A stretch of DNA of 50,275 bases from Bacilli bacterium (GTDB lineage Bacteria; Bacillota_I; Bacilli_A; RFN20; CAG-826). The notes beneath the pieces were generated by a model. The model saw only the letters and a program-made list of their open reading frames with translations. It had not been told where the DNA came from and made no database searches. The position numbers and the translations under genes were made by a program. Positions 19,557 through 43,763 of the stretch are shown here, piece by piece. Each line of letters begins with the position of its first letter. Position 1 is the stretch's first letter. The stretch is from positions 1 to 50,275 of the forward strand of contig JAZLKX010000008.1 in assembly GCA_045597865.1 (NCBI GenBank), read 5' to 3'.

Positions 19557-20342
19557 TTATTTACCAATCTTTAAGAGGTTTTCCATTAAAGCTAATCTAG
19601 TAAGAAGTCCAACTCCACCAGGAACTGGTGTTTGAAGTCTTACTGGAAGACCTGGTTCGACGTCTCCGTGTAGTCCATCTTCATCTCTATTAATTCCGAC
19701 ATCAACAATAACTGCTGATTCTTTGAATTTGAATGATTTAGTAATTAAGTGTTTTTTGCCAACTGCAACGACAACGATGTCTGCATTAGCAAGATAGTTT
19801 GCCATATCTTCTTTTGAGGTTTTGGAGTGAAGAACTGTAACGTTGCAACTTTCCTTTAAAAGGAGCTTTGCCATTGGCTTACCAACAATGTTGCTTCTAC
19901 CAATTACAACAGCATTTTTGCCCAAAAACTCTATGTTTTCGTGCTTTAAATAGTTCATGATGCCTTGTGGAGTGCATGGATTTAATGCGCTTAATGGATG
20001 GAAGCCATCAACATCTTTTGCTGGTGAAATTGCAAGCTTAACTGTCTCTTCATTAATTTGTTTTGGAAGTGGCATTTGAACAATGAATCCATCAACATGA
20101 CGATCCTTGTTTAATTTTGCAATAACCTTAAGAAGGGCTTTTTCACTCATATCAACTGGGAACTTTAATAACTTTGCGTTGATACCAAGTTCTGCAGCAT
20201 CTTTAAGTTTTCCCTTAACATATGCTTTACTTGCTTCATCTTCATTAAGTTGAACAATAACAAGATTTGGTTTCTTTGCCATTGATGCAACTTCAGCTTT
20301 AATCTCTTCTTTTCTTGCTTTAATGTACTCTTTAATTGTCAT
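19557..20342 (-). CDS. folD: Bifunctional methylene-THF dehydrogenase/cyclohydrolase
   Basis: YVKGK, VQMPLP, KDVDGFHP, PCTP, GRSNIVGKP, DVGINR, TPVPGGVG. Confidence 0.96.
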   Translation of the reverse strand: MTIKEYIKARKEEIKAEVASMAKKPNLVIVQLNEDEASKAYVKGKLKDAAELGINAKLLKFPVDMSEKALLKVIAKLNKDRHVDGFIVQMPLPKQINEETVKLAISPAKDVDGFHPLSALNPCTPQGIMNYLKHENIEFLGKNAVVIGRSNIVGKPMAKLLLKESCNVTVLHSKTSKEDMANYLANADIVVVAVGKKHLITKSFKFKESAVIVDVGINRDEDGLHGDVEPGLPVRLQTPVPGGVGLLTRLALMENLLKIGK

Positions 20343-20415: not shown

Positions 20416-21102
20416 ATGGAGTTCGTTGGAATCGATAAATTTTCACTTCTAGACTACGAAGAAAAGGTATCTGTCGTACTATTTTCGCCAGCTTGTAATT
20501 TCAGATGTCCATTCTGCCACAATGGTGATTCAGTACTCAATTCAAACACGCCAATTCCTTTTGATGAAATTTTATATTTCTTAAAAAATAGAGTTGGTTT
20601 GATCGACGCAGTTGTTTTCACTGGTGGCGAACCTACAATGATGCCTGAACTTGAGGAAAGAATTAGAGAAGTTAAGAAACTTGGTTTCCTTATTAAACTT
20701 GATACAAACGGAACAAATCCAACAATTCTTCAACACCTCATCGATGAAGGGCTTTTAGATTACGTTGCAATGGATATTAAGAACTCTGAAAAAGAGTATG
20801 CAAAGACAACCGGATGTAAAGTTTTAAACCTTGAAAATGTGAAAAAATCCATCAAAATCCTAGTAAATTCCCAAATATCTTACGAATTTAGAACAACTTT
20901 AGTAAAAGAATTTCACACAAAAGAATCCATTACTGAAATGTGTGAATTAGTAAAAGGCGCAAATAAACTTCATCTACAAAAATTTGTTGATAGAAAAGGA
21001 GTCATACAAAAAGGCCTCCACGATATTTCTATCGAGGAAGCCAATTCGTTTAAGGATATTTTATCTGAAGCAGTTACTAATGTAGAGCTTCGTGGATATT
21101 AA
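20416..21102 (+). CDS. nrdG: Anaerobic ribonucleoside-triphosphate reductase activating radical SAM protein
   Basis: SLLDY, CNFRCPFCHN, TGGEPT, KLDTNG, AMDIK, YEFRTT; close to nrdD. Confidence 0.93.
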   Translation: MEFVGIDKFSLLDYEEKVSVVLFSPACNFRCPFCHNGDSVLNSNTPIPFDEILYFLKNRVGLIDAVVFTGGEPTMMPELEERIREVKKLGFLIKLDTNGTNPTILQHLIDEGLLDYVAMDIKNSEKEYAKTTGCKVLNLENVKKSIKILVNSQISYEFRTTLVKEFHTKESITEMCELVKGANKLHLQKFVDRKGVIQKGLHDISIEEANSFKDILSEAVTNVELRGY

Positions 21103-21998
21103 CCTAAGTATTTAACTGCTGACATAGCAGCTACAGCACCATCATTACAGGCAGTGACAACTTGTTTCACTGCTTTTTTTCTTGTGTCACCACAGGCGAA
21201 CAAGCCAGGTGTCTTAGTTTTCATATCCTCATCTGTAACAATAAAGCCTTTATCAAGATCAACTAAGTTGCTGAACTTTTCGTTATCTGGAAGTTGGCCA
21301 ATTGAGACAAAGACATTATCTGTTTTGTACTCGAACACTTCTTTGGTAACGGTATTTTGGAATACAAGACCTTCAAGTCTGTCTGTTCCAACATACTTCA
21401 TAAGGCTCATGTTGTTCATAACTTCAATGTTTTCTCTTGCGTTGACTCTATCTTGAAGGACTTTTTCTCCAAAGAATCCACCAAAGAGAGTAAACATATG
21501 AACTTTTGTACAATAACCAGAGAGAAGAAGTGCATATTGAAGAGCTGTATTTGCATCTCCAATTAAATAAACTTCTTTTCCTTTAAATAGCGGACCATCG
21601 CATGTTGCACAGTAGTAAACACCTTTGCCAATTAAGTGCTCTTCATTATCGAGTCCCATGGTTCTATGTTTGACACCATTTGCGATAATTACAGCCTTGG
21701 CTTCATAAGTGTTATAATTGCCTTTTACTGCGAAAATCTCGCCGTTTTTCTGGATATTTTCAACATTTTCGAGTTCAAACTCTGCTCCAAGATCTGTGAT
21801 TTGTTCAAACATTTTGTCAGACAATTCAAGACCAGAAATTTCCTTAATTGTAGGATAATTTTCTACCTTTGGAGAGTTAGCAATTTGACCCCCGAAATTT
21901 TCTTTTTCGAGGATCAAAACTGACTTGTTTGCTCTTAATGCGTACAAGGCGGCAGTCATTCCTGATGGACCACCACCAATGATAATAATGTCGTACAT
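21099..21998 (-). CDS. trxB: Thioredoxin reductase-family flavoprotein with degenerate NADPH site
   Basis: GGGPSG, GGQI, VENYP, CATCDG, GLFACGD; start ATG 21998, 1 nt after nrdD stop. GDANTA and MFTLF replace GGG[ND]xA and HRR. Confidence 0.9.
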   Translation of the reverse strand: MYDIIIIGGGPSGMTAALYALRANKSVLILEKENFGGQIANSPKVENYPTIKEISGLELSDKMFEQITDLGAEFELENVENIQKNGEIFAVKGNYNTYEAKAVIIANGVKHRTMGLDNEEHLIGKGVYYCATCDGPLFKGKEVYLIGDANTALQYALLLSGYCTKVHMFTLFGGFFGEKVLQDRVNARENIEVMNNMSLMKYVGTDRLEGLVFQNTVTKEVFEYKTDNVFVSIGQLPDNEKFSNLVDLDKGFIVTDEDMKTKTPGLFACGDTRKKAVKQVVTACNDGAVAAMSAVKYLG

Positions 21999-21999
21999 T

Positions 22000-24375
22000 T
22001 TATCTTCTACTTTCAATCCAACCTTTGATGTTTGATGCATTTTCGTAAACATCAAATCCGTCACCATTTGGAACTAAGAGAGTTGGTGCTGATTTAATTT
22101 CAAGCTTCTTTGTGAGTTCGACATTTTCTTCTGCATCAACCCAATCATATTCAATGCCTGCTTTTTCTAAAAGCATCTTTGACATTTTGCAGTTTGGGCA
22201 TGTCTTTGTTCCGAATAATGTTACTTTTGAAATTGTGACATCGCTTTCGCATTCTTCGCAGCAGCATTCATCATGATGTAATTCATGAGTTAAATGTGAA
22301 TTTGCTGGATCATATTCTTTACGATCTGCGAATTCTGCAAGTTTACCATCGTTCCAGTTTTGAACTGGTCTGTAGTAACCTGTAATTCTGGAGTAAACTT
22401 CTGTTTTTGCTCCACATTTTGGACAAACATATTGTTCACCTTCAATATAACCATGTTCCTTACAAATTGAGTAAGTTGGTGACATTGTGTAGTATGGAAT
22501 ATGATAGTTTTCAGCAATCTTTCTAACTAAGTTCATACATGATTTGTATGAAGGAAGTTTTTGACCAAGGAATGCGTGGAAGACTGTGCCTGATGTATAA
22601 AGTGTTTGTAATTGATCTTGAACATCAAGTGCTTTGAAGATGTCTTCTGTGTAACCAACTGGTAAGTGTGAAGAGTTGGTGTAATATGGAGTTTTTGCAG
22701 TTCCTTCGGAAGCACAGATAATGTCTGGATATCTTGCCTTGTCGTGTTTTGCTAAACGATAGGAAGTTGATTCAGCTGGTGTTGCTTCAAGGTTATAAAG
22801 GTCACCATATTGTTCTTGGTAGTCAGAGAGTCTTGTTCTCATATGATTGAGAACTGCTTTTGTAAATTCGACTGCTTCTGGATTTGTTAAATCTTTCTTT
22901 AACCAACGTGCATTTAAACAAGCTTCATTCATACCAACAAGACCAATTGTTGAGAAATGGTTGTTGAATGTGCCTAAGTAACGTTTTGTGTATGGATAGA
23001 GTCCTGCTTCAAGTAAAGTTGTAATGGTATTTCTCTTAACTTTAAGTGATCTAGCAGCAATATCCATAATCTTATCTAAGCGTGCGTAGAAGTCTTGTTC
23101 ATCAGTTGCTAAATAAGCGAGTCTTGGCATGTTAATTGTGACAACACCGACAGAGCCTGTAGACTCACCAGAACCGAAAAATCCACCGGATTTCTTACGT
23201 AATTCACGTAAATCTAAGCGTAAACGGCAACACATTGAACGAACATCACTTGGTTCCATATCAGAGTTGATATAGTTGGAGAAATATGGTGTTCCGTATT
23301 TTGCTGTCATTGTGAAGAGAAGCTTATTATTCTCTGTTTCTGACCAGTCAAAATTCTTTGTAATTGAGTAGGTTGGGATTGGGTATTGGAATCCACGTCC
23401 GTTAGCATCGCCTTCAATCATAACTTCAATGAATGCTTTGTTAACCATATCCATTTCGGCTTTGCAATCTTTGTACTTGAAGTCCATTTCTTTGCCACCA
23501 ACAATACAGTTGAGTTCTGCCATATCATTTGGAACAACCCAGTCTAATGTAATGTTTGTGAATGGTGCTTGAGTACCCCATCTTGATGGTGTATTGACAC
23601 CATAAATGAAGGATTGAATGCATTGTTTAACTTCTTTATAGCTGAGGTTATCAACCTTAACAAATGGAGCTAAATAAGTATCGAATGATGAGAAGGCTTG
23701 TGCACCAGCCCATTCATTTTGCATAATTCCAAGGAAGTTAACCATTTGGTTACAAAGTGTTGATAAGTGAGATGCTGGAGAAGAAGTAATTTTTCCAACA
23801 ACACCACCTAAACCTTCTTGAATTAATTGTTTTAATGACCAACCTGCACAGTAACCTGTGAGCATTGATAAATCATGGATGTGAATATCAGCATTTTTGT
23901 GAGCATCGCCGATTTCTTTATCGTAAATCTCACTTAACCAGTAGTTTGCTGTAATTGCGCCAGAGTTTGATAAAATCAAACCACCGACAGAATATGTAAC
24001 TGTTGAGTTTTCTTTAACTCTCCAGTCATTAACTTTTAAGTAGTTATCAATAACGTTCTTGTAGTCAATGCTTGTTTGTGAGAATTGACGTAATGTTTCA
24101 TGTTGTTTTCTGTAAACCATGTAGGATTTAGCAACATCAATAAATCCTGATTGAATTAAAACGACTTCAACTGAGTCTTGAACGTCTTCGACTGCGACTG
24201 TTTCGTCTGCTTTAATCTTTTGGTTGAAATCAGCTGTTACGCGCAACGCGAGCATCTCTATAATATCTTTAGTGTAGAACTTGTGTTCTTGCATAAATGC
24301 CTTTTCGATGGCATTTTCAATCTTTTCGATGTTGAAGTCTGTAACAGAACCATCTCTTTTTCTGATCTTAATCAT
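22000..24375 (-). CDS. nrdD: Class III (anaerobic) ribonucleoside-triphosphate reductase with N-terminal ATP cone and C-terminal glutaredoxin/NrdH-like domain
   Basis: IRKRDGS...ATP cone; HIHDL, GYCAG, SMCCRL, TPAES, CKEHG...CPKC, glycyl loop SRITGYY; C-terminal LFGTKTCPNCKM...SAPTL. Start ATG 24375 with AAGGAG RBS. Confidence 0.97.
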   Translation of the reverse strand: MIKIRKRDGSVTDFNIEKIENAIEKAFMQEHKFYTKDIIEMLALRVTADFNQKIKADETVAVEDVQDSVEVVLIQSGFIDVAKSYMVYRKQHETLRQFSQTSIDYKNVIDNYLKVNDWRVKENSTVTYSVGGLILSNSGAITANYWLSEIYDKEIGDAHKNADIHIHDLSMLTGYCAGWSLKQLIQEGLGGVVGKITSSPASHLSTLCNQMVNFLGIMQNEWAGAQAFSSFDTYLAPFVKVDNLSYKEVKQCIQSFIYGVNTPSRWGTQAPFTNITLDWVVPNDMAELNCIVGGKEMDFKYKDCKAEMDMVNKAFIEVMIEGDANGRGFQYPIPTYSITKNFDWSETENNKLLFTMTAKYGTPYFSNYINSDMEPSDVRSMCCRLRLDLRELRKKSGGFFGSGESTGSVGVVTINMPRLAYLATDEQDFYARLDKIMDIAARSLKVKRNTITTLLEAGLYPYTKRYLGTFNNHFSTIGLVGMNEACLNARWLKKDLTNPEAVEFTKAVLNHMRTRLSDYQEQYGDLYNLEATPAESTSYRLAKHDKARYPDIICASEGTAKTPYYTNSSHLPVGYTEDIFKALDVQDQLQTLYTSGTVFHAFLGQKLPSYKSCMNLVRKIAENYHIPYYTMSPTYSICKEHGYIEGEQYVCPKCGAKTEVYSRITGYYRPVQNWNDGKLAEFADRKEYDPANSHLTHELHHDECCCEECESDVTISKVTLFGTKTCPNCKMSKMLLEKAGIEYDWVDAEENVELTKKLEIKSAPTLLVPNGDGFDVYENASNIKGWIESRR

Positions 24376-24465
24376 AATTTTCTCCTTTTTTTGCGTTTTT
24401 AAAATATACTCTGCGAGCAGAGTATTTTTTACCAACACCTGGTTAAGTTTGGTGAGAATATTATA
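24376..24465 (-). promoter_or_regulatory. nrdD -10 box and structured 5' leader (two hairpins)
   Basis: TATAAT at 24465-24460; leader ACCAA-ACTT-AACC-AGGT-G-TTGGT, then AAAAAATACTCTGC-TC-GCAGAGTATATTTT. Confidence 0.55.
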
Positions 24466-24558
24466 TATAAGGTTATAAAAAAAGAAAATAGTGACTTAAT
24501 GAAAATATATACACTGTACAACTTTTTACAAAATTGTTTCGATTTTTTCAAAAGTTTT

Positions 24559-42875: not shown

Positions 42876-43763
42876 ATGATGAAAAAAGTTATTATTATCG
42901 GCGCTGGACCAATCGGTTTATACTTCGCATCTTTATGTGAAGAAAGAGGTATTGATTACCTCATTTTAGAAGGCTCAAATAAAGTGGGCGGACAAATCTC
43001 ACATTTGTACCCAGAAAAAGAAGTTGTTGACCTTCCGAATATTGAGTCAATTAAAGCTATAGATTATATAAGATTATTAGAAGGTAAAGTTAACCTAAAA
43101 AATATTGTGTTTGAAGCTCGAGTTGAATCCATCAAAAAAGGCGAAAATATTGAGGTTTCTACGGGAAAATCCACGTATTTTTGCGAGAAACTCGTTATTG
43201 CGGCAGGCCTTGGAGCATCTGTTCCTAGACCACTTGGAGTCGAACACGAAAACGAGGTTTCAAACATCATTTATTCTGTTCACGATTTCAGTCATTTAAA
43301 AGATAAACATGTTGCTATTTTTGGAGGCGGAGATTCAGCCTTAGATTGGGCAAAAGAAATCTCTGCAATTTCTGACCACGTTCATCTCATTCATAGACGT
43401 ATGGAATTTAGAGGAAATCCTGAAACAATAAAAGATTGCAAAAATTTAGCAATCCACCTTCCTTTTGTTCCTGCATCAATTGAAGTAAAGGACGGAAAAG
43501 CTGTTTCAGTTACAATCAACAAAGTGGATGAAGAAGGAAAATCAGAAACTATTCCAGTAGATTACATCTTTGTTAACTACGGTAACGTTGCAAAGCAATC
43601 AGACTTCCCGTTTGAAAAAGAAGGTTTGTTCTTAAAGGTTAATGAAAACTGCGAAATCGAAAAGAATATTTTCGCAATTGGCGATATTTGTGCATACGAA
43701 AATAAAACCAGACGTATGGCGCCTGGTATTAATGAAGCAAATAAGGTAATCAAACTTATTTAG
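42876..43763 (+). CDS. TrxR-like ferredoxin-NADP+ reductase (YumC-like)
   Basis: GAGPIG, GGQ..LYPEK.V.D, GGGDSALDW, IHRR, IGD; no CxxC. Confidence 0.88.
   Translation: MMKKVIIIGAGPIGLYFASLCEERGIDYLILEGSNKVGGQISHLYPEKEVVDLPNIESIKAIDYIRLLEGKVNLKNIVFEARVESIKKGENIEVSTGKSTYFCEKLVIAAGLGASVPRPLGVEHENEVSNIIYSVHDFSHLKDKHVAIFGGGDSALDWAKEISAISDHVHLIHRRMEFRGNPETIKDCKNLAIHLPFVPASIEVKDGKAVSVTINKVDEEGKSETIPVDYIFVNYGNVAKQSDFPFEKEGLFLKVNENCEIEKNIFAIGDICAYENKTRRMAPGINEANKVIKLI

What the first reader, a model, noticed from the sequence alone, without database searches (positions are those of the whole stretch)
21099..24375. NrdD-redoxin fusion coupled to a thioredoxin reductase lacking the NADPH site: candidate ferredoxin-driven class III RNR relay
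Seen: NrdD ends in an about 75-aa glutaredoxin/NrdH-like domain (LFGTKTCPNCKM...SAPTL; CPNC at 22189-22200) and has a Cys-Cys finger loop (SMCCRL). trxB starts 1 nt after its stop. This TrxB keeps the FAD motifs and CATC, but GGG[ND]xA is GDANTA and HRRxxxR is MFTLFGGFF, whereas the FNR at 42876 retains GGGDSA and IHRRMEFR. Known: E. coli and T4 NrdD use formate; Neisseria bacilliformis NrdD uses Trx/TrxR/NADPH; Methanosarcina uses NrdH with a ferredoxin:disulfide reductase; some clostridial flavin TrxRs lacking these motifs are ferredoxin-linked. Inference: electrons flow ferredoxin/flavodoxin to flavin TrxR to fused CPNC domain to active-site disulfide. I do not know of this combination being characterised.
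Basis: partly seen in the sequence, partly recalled or inferred. Interest (0 to 1): 0.78.

Follow-up and report, generated by a model that had tools for sequence, protein, structure and literature searches.

The report
Anaerobic RNR with tethered redoxin and reductase
The only DNA-precursor enzyme of this gut anaerobe carries its own small redox domain and is followed by a private thioredoxin-reductase-like gene whose NADPH pocket has been rebuilt, a widespread but unstudied module that hints at a new way of feeding electrons to DNA synthesis.

Summary
NrdD (22000-24375, minus strand) has an ATP-cone, a class III core (Cys176, Met-Cys-Cys finger loop, Glu530, Gly666) and a C-terminal CPNC thioredoxin-fold domain. 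A 299-aa TrxR-like gene starts 1 nt after its stop. It keeps the FAD motif and CATC, but has GDANTA for GxGxxA and TLFGGFF for HRRxxxR.

This is not a one-off. In 151 genomes of the same order, 64 NrdDs are fused and 41 of those have this reductase directly downstream. None of the 41 keeps HRRxxxR. The same module occurs in many Clostridia. The NrdD-linked reductases form one clade. Its sister group still has HRR, and two of those three members are also NrdD-adjacent.

NrdD is the only RNR found in this genome, and no pyruvate formate-lyase was found. PFOR, an [FeFe]-hydrogenase and a small ferredoxin are present.

Best reading: a dedicated reductase to tethered redoxin to NrdD disulfide relay that no longer uses NADPH. 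Ferredoxin as donor is plausible but untested. The enzyme is not a member of the clostridial FFTR group. I rate it a new variant of known kinds.

The parts
22000..24375 (-). nrdD, 791 aa: class III ribonucleotide reductase fused to a C-terminal redoxin domain
   Evidence: ORF. Pfam NRDD E 8.7e-191. NCBIfam NF006126 scores 1132.5 bits against a 548 cut-off. RBS AAAGGAGA lies before the ATG at 24375.
24097..24372 (-). ATP-cone, residues 2-93
   Evidence: Pfam PF03477, 70.6 bits.
22312..24012 (-). NrdD catalytic barrel and glycyl-radical domain, residues 122-688
   Evidence: Pfam PF13597 matched over 1-562 of 562 positions. C638, H641, C651 and C654 (Zn site) and R663-Y668 are invariant in 36 of 36 sequences.
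23848..23850 (-). Cys176 (with Tyr175), the conserved beta-A cysteine
   Evidence: Aligns with Tyr124-Cys125 of T. maritima NrdD (4coi). Invariant in A3.
23221..23238 (-). Finger loop S-M-C-C-R-L, residues 380-385
   Evidence: Read from the sequence. SDVRSMCCRLRL is identical in 41 of 41 loci. MCCR class of PMC9669993.
22786..22788 (-). Glu530, putative proton donor
   Evidence: Aligns with Glu495 of T. maritima NrdD. That column is defined in the methods of PMC9669993. Invariant in A3.
22372..22389 (-). Glycyl radical motif R-I-T-G-Y-Y, Gly666
   Evidence: Invariant in 36 of 36 sequences. Lies at the C-terminal end of the NRDD Pfam match.
22225..22311 (-). Variable acidic linker, residues 689-717. 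In this genome it holds ECCCEEC.
   Evidence: The alignment shows variable length and sequence, and the Cys cluster is not conserved. AF2 pLDDT is below 50 for 699-712.
22003..22224 (-). Redoxin domain, residues 718-791, minimal thioredoxin fold. CPNC lies at 22189-22200 and the cis-Pro loop is APTL.
   Evidence: Pfam Glutaredoxin, 33.1 bits. AF2 of the domain alone gives pLDDT 90.9 with beta-alpha-beta-alpha-beta-beta-alpha topology. Foldseek finds thioredoxins at TM 0.6-0.7. C726, P727 and C729 are invariant.
21099..21998 (-). trxB-like gene, 299 aa: NrdD-linked flavin disulfide reductase of the TLFD class
   Evidence: ORF. TIGR01292 scores 319.6 bits, below the 343.45 cut-off. Best solved relatives are NTRs. 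Falls in the TLFD clade, support 1.0.
21960..21977 (-). FAD-binding G-G-G-P-S-G, residues 8-13
   Evidence: Read from the sequence. G8 and G10 are invariant.
21600..21611 (-). Redox-active C-A-T-C, residues 130-133
   Evidence: CxxC is present in 41 of 41 adjacent reductases.
21543..21560 (-). G-D-A-N-T-A in place of the pyrophosphate loop GxGxxA
   Evidence: Alignments. In the TLFD class Asp148 is 100% and Ala149 is 82%, against Gly 100% in HRR-type sequences.
21471..21491 (-). T-L-F-G-G-F-F in place of H-R-R-D-x-x-R, the 2'-phosphate site
   Evidence: Alignments. 0 of 41 adjacent reductases keep HRR.
20416..21102 (+). nrdG activase. It is convergent with the trxB-like gene and overlaps its end by 4 nt.
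   Evidence: TIGR02495 scores 198.9 bits against a 131.15 cut-off. A convergent nrdG is found in 28 of 40 related loci.
24376..24531 (-). nrdD leader: promoter-like TTGTAA-16-TATATT (24504-24531), palindrome ATACTCTGC-N2-GCAGAGTAT (24406-24425) and RBS
   Evidence: Consensus scan only; the number of sites is no higher than in shuffles. Sequence read. No Rfam match.

Best explanation
nrdD, the trxB-like gene and the convergent nrdG encode a self-contained electron supply for the cell's only ribonucleotide reductase.

Proposed steps:
1. After each turnover NrdD is left with an active-site disulfide between Cys176 and a finger-loop cysteine, as in the thioredoxin-dependent NrdD of Neisseria bacilliformis. 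(Inferred.)
2. The CPNC thioredoxin-fold domain, tethered by a flexible linker of about 30 residues just behind the glycyl-radical domain, reduces that disulfide. (Inferred.)
3. The co-translated flavoenzyme re-reduces the CPNC domain through its CATC/FAD centre, as TrxR does for Trx, NrdH and glutaredoxin-like proteins. (Inferred from conserved gene order, conserved residues and a weak complex prediction.)
4. The flavoenzyme belongs to a single NrdD-linked clade that arose from NADPH-type TrxRs. (Shown by sequence and tree.) Both parts of its NADPH pocket have been rebuilt: HRRxxxR to TLFxxFF, and GxGxxA to GDANTA. (Shown.) It therefore very probably no longer uses NADPH.
5. The physiological donor is most likely a low-potential protein such as the genome's small [4Fe-4S] ferredoxin, which would be reduced by PFOR or the hydrogenase. 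(Inferred, not tested.)

My odds: relay 0.8; NADPH-independence of this protein 0.75; ferredoxin as donor about 0.4.
For: Gene unit.
- The gap is 1 nt, with a purine-rich stretch before the ATG.
- 41 of 64 fused NrdDs in 151 genomes of the order have the reductase directly downstream, at match gaps of 4-85 nt.
- Among 80 loci from other taxa, all 10 TLF-type reductases (plus 2 TLFD variants) and 28 of the 33 QNL-type ones with readable upstream DNA are adjacent to NrdD+redoxin. Two more QNL-type ones lie 854 and 935 nt away. Only 4 of 26 HRR-type ones are adjacent.
- Two of those four HRR-type reductases (L111, L150) sit apart from the NrdD-linked clade in the tree, so adjacency probably arose more than once.

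Selection.
- CxxC of the reductase is kept in 41 of 41, and CxxC of the redoxin in 41 of 41.
- Class-specific differences between TLFD and HRR reductases fall almost only at positions 148, 149, 154, 170-172 and 176, all in the NADPH site.

Phylogeny (FastTree, 162 sequences).
- TLFD clade of 44 sequences, support 1.0; QNL clade of 45, support 0.845; both together 0.91.
- The sister group is three HRR sequences, two of them NrdD-adjacent; parent node support 0.977.

NrdD chemistry. Cys176, the Cys-Cys finger loop and Glu530 are all present and invariant.

Need for a non-formate route.
- No class I/II RNR and no PFL-like gene was found in this 96.9%-complete genome.
- PFL was found in 7 of 41 genomes with the module, against 13 of 23 genomes with a fused NrdD but no adjacent reductase. 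These genomes are related, so the comparison is descriptive only.

Low-potential metabolism. PFOR, HydA with a NuoF-like subunit, and a 55-aa Fer4_15 ferredoxin (36.3 bits, cut-off 22.4) are present.

No NADH-type acid. E. coli AhpF has Glu at the position of TrxB His175; the window protein has Thr there.

Structure.
- The redoxin domain folds confidently (pLDDT 90.9).
- In the full NrdD model the linker 699-712 has pLDDT below 50.

Complex prediction of reductase, redoxin domain and FAD: weak support.
- Score 0.50, best of 3 controls 0.00.
- The mark was reached by 58 of 80 solved complexes and 2 of 110 mismatched pairs. At 0.60 or under it was reached by only 7 of those 80 and by both mismatches.
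- The runs agree in at least 96% of contacts, and the partner pLDDT is at least 79.
- TrxR-Trx complexes are solved, so the pass may come from memory.

RNA libraries. Contigs bridge the nrdD/trxB junction in three runs from two studies: X16 21145-23506, X10 21751-22270 and X17 21463-22135. This is a hint only.
Against: - The finger loop keeps Met381. PMC9669993 says such MCCR enzymes hold the components for either formate or thioredoxin, so formate chemistry is not excluded. Gut formate could be taken up.
- No donor is identified. No Flavodoxin_1 was found, and no ferredoxin gene is conserved near the module.
- The enzyme is not close to proven ferredoxin-dependent FFTRs.
- The sister QNL class keeps GGGN[ST]A, so a dinucleotide such as NADH remains possible there. 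Some residual binding here cannot be excluded from sequence alone.
- 23 of 64 fused NrdDs have no adjacent reductase. In the 20 of these inspected there was none within 3 kb downstream. A dedicated reductase is therefore not obligatory.
- Seven genomes with the module also have PFL.
- The complex prediction passed only weakly.
- RNA-library contigs cannot prove a single transcript. One contig also crosses the convergent nrdG/trxB ends, which suggests DNA or read-through in that library.
Confidence: 0.5

Rival explanations
1. The relay is the same, but the reductase still takes electrons from a pyridine nucleotide: NADH, or NADPH bound in a new way. The loss of HRRxxxR would then be a change of coenzyme specificity, not a change of donor class.
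For: - The clade descends from NADPH-type enzymes, and its sister group still has HRR.
- The sister QNL class keeps an intact GGGN[ST]A pyrophosphate loop in 43 of 43 sequences. It often has Asn or Asp one residue after the end of the second beta strand.
- NADH-preferring TrxRs exist. T. maritima is cited in PMC5627308 (passage).
Against: - In the window's TLFD class the second Gly of GxGxxA is Ala (82%) and the residue before it is Asp (100%). Both are unfavourable for a pyrophosphate (the stereochemical argument is established Rossmann-fold knowledge).
- There is no acidic residue at the AhpF Glu position.
- The four basic residues are replaced by Thr, Leu, Phe and Phe.
Confidence: 0.2
2. 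NrdD turns over with formate, as E. coli and T4 NrdD do. The redoxin and reductase pair then serves another purpose, such as keeping the Cys-Cys loop or the Zn-site cysteines reduced after oxygen exposure, or gating activity by redox state.
For: - Met381 is kept in 41 of 41 loci, and most Cys-Cys-type NrdDs keep it (83% in PMC9669993).
- 7 of 41 genomes with the module, and 13 of 23 with a fused NrdD alone, have PFL.
- folD lies next to nrdG, so one-carbon metabolism is nearby.
Against: - No PFL-like gene was found in this genome or in 34 of 41 genomes with the module.
- Glu530, held to be needed for formate-independent reduction, is invariant.
- T. maritima NrdD, also a Cys-Cys type, was inactive with formate and needed a protein fraction (PMC4493059, passage).
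- A fused Grx in F. ignava NrdB is a true catalytic reductant (PMC6187632).
Confidence: 0.15
3. The TrxR-like gene is a decaying duplicate or a non-catalytic partner, and its degenerate NADPH site simply reflects loss of function.
For: - The NADPH motifs are lost.
- The window copy is the only one of the 41 order-level reductases with Gly-Gly in place of the usual Asp plus Lys/Arg/His in TLFDKFF.
- The housekeeping TrxBs of relatives show many unrelated degenerations.
Against: - The frame is intact in 41 of 41 loci.
- The FAD motif, CxxC and about 30 invariant columns are kept.
- The replacement motif is itself conserved across Bacilli and Clostridia: Leu171, Phe172 and Phe176 are each 98% in the TLFD class. 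That is the reverse of drift.
Confidence: 0.03

Closest known systems
Thioredoxin-dependent class III RNR of Neisseria bacilliformis (NrdD2; Wei et al. 2014, known to me only through passages in PMC9669993 and PMC4493059)
   Same: Cys-Cys finger loop, beta-A cysteine and active-site Glu. A disulfide is re-reduced by a thioredoxin-fold protein that is itself reduced by a TrxR.
   Different: - Here the redoxin is fused to NrdD.
- The reductase is a dedicated, adjacent paralogue without the NADPH motifs.
- The finger loop keeps Met (MCCR rather than SCCR).
Methanosarcina barkeri NrdD3 with NrdH and ferredoxin:disulfide reductase (Wei et al. 2015; I saw only the title in a reference list and the table entry 'Glutaredoxin-like NrdH (NrdD3)' in PMC9176816)
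   Same: A gene-linked chain from a low-potential donor through a disulfide reductase and a small redoxin to NrdD.
   Different: - From recall, that reductase is an Fe-S enzyme of the FTR type, not a flavoenzyme.
- The redoxin is a separate protein.
- The NrdD3 loop is QCCR with neither Met nor Glu (PMC9669993).
Ferredoxin-dependent flavin thioredoxin reductases, FFTR (Clostridium, Gloeobacter; PDB 6gna, 6gnc, 6gnd, 5j60)
   Same: TrxR fold, FAD, CxxC, and loss of the GxGxxA and HRRxxxR motifs.
   Different: - Sequence similarity is lower than to NTRs: 128-155 bits against 226.
- The clostridial FFTR chains are about 10-20 residues shorter.
- This clade lost the site independently, from an NrdD-linked NTR ancestor.
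- The donor here is unknown.
DvTRi of Desulfovibrio vulgaris (PDB 5nii; PMC5627308)
   Same: A NAD(P)H-independent TrxR paralogue of anaerobes with an unidentified physiological reductant. It arose from TR1 by duplication.
   Different: - TRi has TQ/NGK in place of HRRD, whereas this protein has TLFG.
- It scores only 86 bits to 5nii.
- TRi is not linked to NrdD.
Grx::ATP-cone::NrdB fusion of Facklamia ignava (PMC6187632)
   Same: A redoxin fused to an RNR subunit, shown there to act as the RNR's reductant. The same paper lists one grx::nrdD fusion (Lachnospiraceae bacterium TWA4) from a RefSeq search.
   Different: - That is a class I RNR with an N-terminal fusion to the radical subunit, and it depends on glutathione.
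- The nrdD fusion was only listed, not studied.
- No dedicated reductase was noted.

Membership tests
Class III RNR catalytic subunit (NrdD) | NRDD domain with C-terminal glycyl radical motif and Zn site | tested here: met
   PF13597 E 8.7e-191. NF006126 1132.5 bits against 548. RITGYY and C638/H641/C651/C654 are invariant.
Class III RNR catalytic subunit (NrdD) | Partner radical-SAM activase NrdG | tested here: met
   TIGR02495 198.9 bits against 131.15, at 20416-21102.
Thioredoxin-only NrdD2 subclade (N. bacilliformis / T. maritima type, as defined in PMC9669993) | Double-Cys finger loop | tested here: met
   SMCCRL, 41 of 41 loci.
Thioredoxin-only NrdD2 subclade (N. bacilliformis / T. maritima type, as defined in PMC9669993) | Active-site Glu (T. 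maritima Glu495 column) | tested here: met
   Glu530 aligns with it and is invariant.
Thioredoxin-only NrdD2 subclade (N. bacilliformis / T. maritima type, as defined in PMC9669993) | No Met at the start of the finger-loop motif | tested here: not met
   Met381 is present. The protein belongs to the larger MCCR+Glu group, whose reductant is open.
NADPH-dependent thioredoxin reductase (NTR, TIGR01292) | FAD GxGxxG and redox CxxC | tested here: met
   GGGPSG and CATC.
NADPH-dependent thioredoxin reductase (NTR, TIGR01292) | GxGxxA pyrophosphate loop and HRRxxxR 2'-phosphate site | tested here: not met
   GDANTA and TLFGGFF.
NADPH-dependent thioredoxin reductase (NTR, TIGR01292) | Score over the curated cut-off | tested here: not met
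   319.6 bits, below 343.45.
Ferredoxin-dependent flavin TrxR (FFTR) | Absence of the NAD(P)H motifs | tested here: met
Ferredoxin-dependent flavin TrxR (FFTR) | Clusters with characterised FFTRs | tested here: not met
   Scores to 6gnc, 6gna, 6gnd and 5j60 are 155, 132, 128 and 128 bits, against 226 bits to the NTR 7aaw. No FFTR sequence could be placed in my tree.
Ferredoxin-dependent flavin TrxR (FFTR) | Reduced by ferredoxin, not by NADPH | not testable with these tools
   Needs enzyme assays.
TRi (DvTRi type) | TQ/NGK motif in place of HRRD | tested here: not met
   TLFG here. Motif taken from PMC5627308.
Glutaredoxin / NrdH-like redoxin | Thioredoxin fold with CxxC and a cis-Pro loop | tested here: met
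   PF00462 33.1 bits against 22.9. AF2 pLDDT 90.9. C726, P727 and C729 are invariant; P764 and T765 are at least 90% conserved.
Glutaredoxin / NrdH-like redoxin | Membership of a named subfamily (NrdH TIGR02194, YruB TIGR02196, Grx3 TIGR02181) | tested here: not met
   Scores are 20.6, 30.2 and 20.9 bits, against cut-offs of 85.75, 88.55 and 90.

The most novel reading that the evidence does not exclude
The NrdD-linked TLFD and QNL reductases are a new class of pyridine-nucleotide-independent flavin disulfide reductases. They arose separately from FFTR, TRi and DFTR. They wire deoxyribonucleotide synthesis of many gut Firmicutes directly to the low-potential ferredoxin pool (PFOR, hydrogenase) through a redoxin tethered to the RNR. 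DNA precursor supply would then follow the cell's fermentative redox state rather than NADPH or formate.
Probability: 0.35. Interest if true: 0.75.

Novelty: new variant of a known kind. Interest (0 to 1): 0.62.

Why it matters
Which reductant serves the large majority of double-cysteine class III RNRs is an open question. PMC9669993 notes that 83% of them keep the components for both formate and thioredoxin.

A redoxin fused to NrdD, with a private reductase, gives that question a direct experimental handle. The module is conserved across many uncultured and some cultured gut Firmicutes. In many of the genomes searched no pyruvate formate-lyase was found, and in this one NrdD is the only RNR found.

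The reductase clade also shows stages that suggest stepwise rebuilding of an NADPH pocket: HRR, then QNL with GGGNSA, then TLFD with GDANTA. This is a natural series for studying how TrxRs change electron donor, and it adds a fourth or fifth lineage of NAD(P)H-motif-less TrxRs whose donor is unknown.

NrdD is the only RNR found in this genome. If that holds for other carriers, the module would be essential and might serve as a selective target or marker for them.

Tried and rejected
1. Cys-rich linker as a shuttle. The window's linker has ECCCEEC, which recalls the C-terminal Cys pairs of class I/II RNRs. It is not conserved in the 40 relatives, so I dropped the idea.

2. Guilt by association for the donor. 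I scanned the 120 related loci for small ferredoxin or rubredoxin ORFs. There were only 2 hits: one rubredoxin-like ORF in L090 and one ferredoxin beside a non-NrdD canonical TrxB in L163. No conserved donor gene emerged.

3. Flavodoxin. PF00258 was not found in the genome. Other flavodoxin families were not searched.

4. Classic 2x[4Fe-4S] ferredoxin. A pattern scan found no small ORF of this kind. One single-cluster ferredoxin and one rubredoxin-like ORF turned up with a looser pattern.

5. Riboswitch or known RNA in the nrdD leader. No Rfam match at E up to 0.1. Promoter and terminator scans gave no more sites than shuffles.

6. Naming the redoxin subfamily by fold. Foldseek gave generic thioredoxins at TM 0.6-0.7, with no preference for NrdH or Grx.

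7. Placing FFTR, TRi or DFTR reference sequences in my tree. PDB chains are not stored as usable sequences, so I compared bit scores only.

8. Papers not held. Wei 2014 and Wei 2015 could not be read. Supplements are closed, so Table S1 of PMC6187632, which may list more grx::nrdD fusions, and the TrxB alignments in S1 Fig of PMC10880999 were not seen.

10. Full-length NrdD model. Mean pLDDT is only 72.7, so I draw nothing from how the domains are placed.

11. Literature searches for the combination. None returned a paper describing an NrdD-redoxin fusion with a dedicated reductase.

Full report
**1. What is there**

The window is contig C8 of a 1.74-Mb genome in 58 contigs, about 35% G+C, 96.9% complete. 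The nearest named public records are 'MAG: Bacilli bacterium'.

Three genes make up the locus on and around the minus strand.

- nrdD, 22000-24375, 791 aa. Its ATG is preceded by AAAGGAGA. It has an ATP-cone (2-93), the NRDD core (122-688, E 8.7e-191) and a Glutaredoxin-family match (718-762). NCBIfam places it in NF006126 at 1132.5 bits against a 548 cut-off.
- A 299-aa TrxR-like gene, 21099-21998. Its ATG follows the nrdD stop after a single base.
- nrdG, 20416-21102, plus strand. It converges on the TrxR-like gene and overlaps it by 4 nt.

**2. NrdD type**

Aligned with T. maritima NrdD (4coi), the protein has Tyr175-Cys176 at the beta-A position (Tm Tyr124-Cys125) and Glu530 at Tm Glu495. 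Burnim et al. use that column for the putative proton donor (PMC9669993, methods passage).

The finger loop is Met381-Cys382-Cys383-Arg384. [quoted passage not shown] It is therefore not the Met-less subclade of N. bacilliformis and T. maritima.

The loop SDVRSMCCRLRL is identical in 41 of 41 related loci. Cys176, Glu530, the glycyl motif RITGYY and the Zn ligands are invariant in 36 of 36 full-length sequences.

**3. The fused domain**

Folded alone with 36 sequences, residues 706-791 give a confident minimal thioredoxin fold: pLDDT 90.9, topology beta-alpha-beta-alpha-beta-beta-alpha. Foldseek matches are thioredoxins at TM 0.6-0.7. No named subfamily model reaches its cut-off; NrdH, YruB and Grx3 score 20.6, 30.2 and 20.9 bits.

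C726, P727 and C729 are invariant, and the cis-Pro loop (A)PTL is nearly so.

The linker (689-717) varies in length and sequence, and the window's ECCCEEC cluster is not conserved. In a full-length model of only moderate quality (mean pLDDT 72.7), residues 699-712 fall below pLDDT 50. The finger loop 380-386 is also below 50. The domain behind the linker scores 88-94. This fits a tethered, mobile redoxin.

**4. The reductase**

It scores 319.6 bits on TIGR01292, just under the 343.45 cut-off.

| Solved relative | Type | Bits |
|---|---|---|
| 7aaw | NADPH-type TrxR | 226 |
| 4zn0 | NADPH-type TrxR | 213 |
| 4gcm | NADPH-type TrxR | 212 |
| 6gnc | clostridial FFTR | 155 |
| 6gna | clostridial FFTR | 132 |
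| 6gnd | clostridial FFTR | 128 |
| 5j60 | Gloeobacter enzyme | 128 |
| 5nii | DvTRi | 86 |

Against 7aaw and E. coli TrxB, GGGDSA/GGGNTA aligns with GDANTA, and HRRDxxR aligns with TLFGGFF. E. coli AhpF, an NADH user from recall, has Glu at the TrxB His175 column. The window protein has Thr there. It therefore shows neither the NADPH signature nor the usual NADH signature.

**5. How general is it**

- The C-terminal region 690-791 finds 914 protein clusters (90% identity) of NrdD length at E up to 1e-3, among 975 candidates. The best 120 all carry PF13597 plus PF00462.
- In 151 genomes sampled from the window's order, 71 have an NrdD match and 64 of those reach residue 773 or beyond, meaning they are fused.
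- In 41 of the 64, a TrxR-like gene lies directly downstream (match gaps 4-85 nt).
- Of the other 23, I inspected 20. All have nrdG-nrdD with no reductase within 3 kb downstream.
- In the 41 adjacent reductases, CxxC is kept in 41 and HRRxxxR in 0. The glycine loop is GDAN[ST]A in 27, GDGNxA in 5 and GGGN[ST]A in 9. The HRR region reads [TA]LFD[KRH][FL]F in most, or QNLxxLT.
- nrdG is convergent downstream in 28 of 40 loci.

**6. Beyond the order**

A scan of one genome per species with the reductase alignment returned 80 loci. They come from Bacilli, Oscillospiraceae, Ruminococcaceae, Lachnospiraceae, Christensenellaceae, Erysipelotrichaceae and others. Their NrdD cores are 71-93% identical to the window's. 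Adjacency by motif class:

| Reductase class | Adjacent to NrdD+redoxin | Near | Not adjacent | Upstream unreadable |
|---|---|---|---|---|
| TLF-type (10) | 10 | 0 | 0 | 0 |
| Other (4) | 2 (variants ALFNRLF, TWMDKFF) | 0 | 2 | 0 |
| QNL-type (35) | 28 | 2 (854 and 935 nt away) | 3 | 2 |
| HRR-type (31) | 4 | 0 | 22 | 5 |

**7. Phylogeny**

A FastTree (LG+gamma, midpoint-rooted) was built from 162 sequences: 41 adjacent reductases of the order, 41 second or sole TrxBs, and the 80 loci.

- The TLFD class is one clade of 44 sequences, support 1.0.
- The QNL class is a clade of 45 (43 plus two variants), support 0.845.
- The two together have support 0.91.
- Their sister is a trio of HRR enzymes (L152, L159, L135), of which two are NrdD-adjacent. 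Parent node support is 0.977.
- The other two adjacent HRR enzymes (L111, L150) sit among ordinary clostridial NTRs. That suggests independent recruitment.

The class-specific differences between TLFD and HRR enzymes are positions 148, 149, 154, 170, 171, 172 and 176, all in the NADPH site, plus two conservative changes at 18 and 42.

The simplest history has three steps. An NADPH-type TrxR became linked to a redoxin-fused NrdD. It then lost the 2'-phosphate site. One branch, which includes the window, also lost the pyrophosphate loop. The root is a midpoint root and no outgroup was used, so the order of events is an inference.

**8. The rest of the genome**

- No class I/II RNR large subunit (PF02867) was found, so NrdD is the only RNR found.
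- No PFL-like gene was found with PF02901 or TIGR01255.
- Across the order, PFL was found in 7 of 41 genomes with the module, 13 of 23 with a fused NrdD only, and 39 of the other 87. Related genomes are not independent, so this is descriptive.
- There is one WCGPC thioredoxin (C25:130-429).
- A second TrxB lies in the uvrA...rapZ-whiA housekeeping cluster (C28:8841-9743). It also lacks both motifs, reading GNNNIC and CPDEKLN. No TrxB in the genome reaches the TIGR01292 cut-off.
- Among 29 relatives that have the module, the second TrxB is canonical in 12 and degenerate in 17, with unrelated replacement sequences. The contrast is informative. The housekeeping copies drift in many ways, whereas the NrdD-linked copies carry a conserved new motif.
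- Low-potential metabolism is present: PFOR, an [FeFe]-hydrogenase with a NuoF-like subunit, a 55-aa single-cluster ferredoxin (Fer4_15, 36.3 bits against 22.4), and the TrxR-like FNR of the window, which keeps GGGDSA and HRRMEFR.
- No Flavodoxin_1 was found.

**9. Interaction and expression**

Complex prediction of reductase, redoxin domain and FAD gave 'weak support'. The score was 0.50 and the best of three controls was 0.00. The mark was reached by 58 of 80 solved complexes and 2 of 110 mismatched pairs. At 0.60 or under it was reached by only 7 of those 80 and by both mismatches. The runs agree in at least 96% of contacts, and the partner pLDDT is at least 79. TrxR-Trx complexes are solved, so the pass may reflect likeness only.

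Contigs from RNA libraries of two studies bridge the nrdD/trxB junction: X16 21145-23506 with 66 other letters, X10 21751-22270 with 8, and X17 21463-22135 with 24. Contigs cannot prove one transcript. One X10 contig also crosses the convergent nrdG end, which suggests DNA or read-through in that library.

**10. Mechanism and odds**

The relay from reductase CATC/FAD to the CPNC domain to the NrdD disulfide rests on five things:
- tight and repeatedly evolved gene linkage;
- conservation of all three redox centres;
- the precedent of TrxRs reducing Trx, NrdH and glutaredoxin-like proteins;
- the precedent of a catalytically competent Grx fused to NrdB (PMC6187632, passages);
- the lack of a formate source in most carriers.

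I put the relay at 0.8. Loss of NADPH use by the window's enzyme I put at 0.75. All four basic residues are replaced by Thr, Leu, Phe and Phe, the second Gly of the loop by Ala, and an Asp is added.

The donor is open. Ferredoxin is the best candidate (about 0.4), because the cell has PFOR, a hydrogenase and a ferredoxin, and because other motif-less TrxRs use it (PMC10880999 and PMC12796991, passages). However, DvTRi shows that such enzymes can have a still-unknown donor (PMC5627308, abstract and passages). NADH cannot be excluded either, least of all for the QNL class.

**11. Comparison and novelty**

The system works like NrdD2 with Trx and TrxR, and like NrdD3 with NrdH and a ferredoxin:disulfide reductase. 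It differs from both in three ways: the redoxin is fused, the reductase is a private flavoenzyme clade with a rebuilt NADPH site, and the NrdD is of the MCCR+Glu type.

It is not a member of the FFTR or TRi groups by sequence.

[quoted passage not shown] None of the seven searches returned a paper on the module. Wei 2014 and Wei 2015 and all supplements were not available to me and may hold relevant neighbourhood notes.

Verdict: a real, widespread and uncharacterised variant of known kinds. Interest 0.62.

Noticed in passing
G000:C28:8841-9743 (own genome, outside the window); relatives L045-L073: The housekeeping trxB, which sits in the uvrA...rapZ-whiA cluster, also lacks GxGxxA and HRRxxxR (it reads GNNNIC and CPDEKLN). 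No TrxB in the genome reaches the TIGR01292 cut-off. In relatives that have the module, the second TrxB is canonical in 12 of 29 and degenerate in 17 of 29, with unrelated replacement sequences. The whole thioredoxin system of part of this lineage may therefore be independent of NADPH.
   Followed up: partly
window 24406-24425 (minus-strand leader of nrdD): Perfect palindrome ATACTCTGC-N2-GCAGAGTAT between promoter-like hexamers (24504-24531) and the RBS. It could be an operator or a leader hairpin. There is no Rfam match. Conservation in relatives was not checked.
   Followed up: no
window 22225-22311 (NrdD linker): This genome's linker has a cluster of five cysteines (DECCCEECESD) just before the redoxin domain. 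It is not conserved in the 40 relatives, some of which have other scattered Cys or His residues.
   Followed up: yes
relatives G007, G008, G026, G038, G080, G089, G107, G110: The pyruvate formate-lyase match is split near residue 665. The last ~80 residues, which hold the glycyl-radical part, lie in a neighbouring frame or ORF. Several family-f7 genomes also show in-frame TAA or TAG stops inside PFL. These may be split genes, decay or assembly errors.
   Followed up: no
L111, L150, L152, L159 (genome-contig loci): Four NrdD+redoxin genes are followed by a TrxB with intact GGGxxA and HRRxxxR. These are natural NADPH-type versions of the same module and would make useful comparison enzymes.
   Followed up: partly
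window 42876-43763: TrxR-like ferredoxin-NADP reductase (YumC type). It has GGGDSA and HRRMEFR but no CxxC, and would link NADPH and ferredoxin in this cell.
   Followed up: partly
window 19557-20342: folD lies directly beside nrdG. One-carbon metabolism next to an RNR locus may be coincidence.
   Followed up: no
L085-L164, NrdD cores: NrdD cores from Bacilli and from many Clostridia families are 71-93% identical to the window's, while the adjacent reductases are only 40-74% identical. NrdD is either unusually constrained or has moved between lineages.
   Followed up: no
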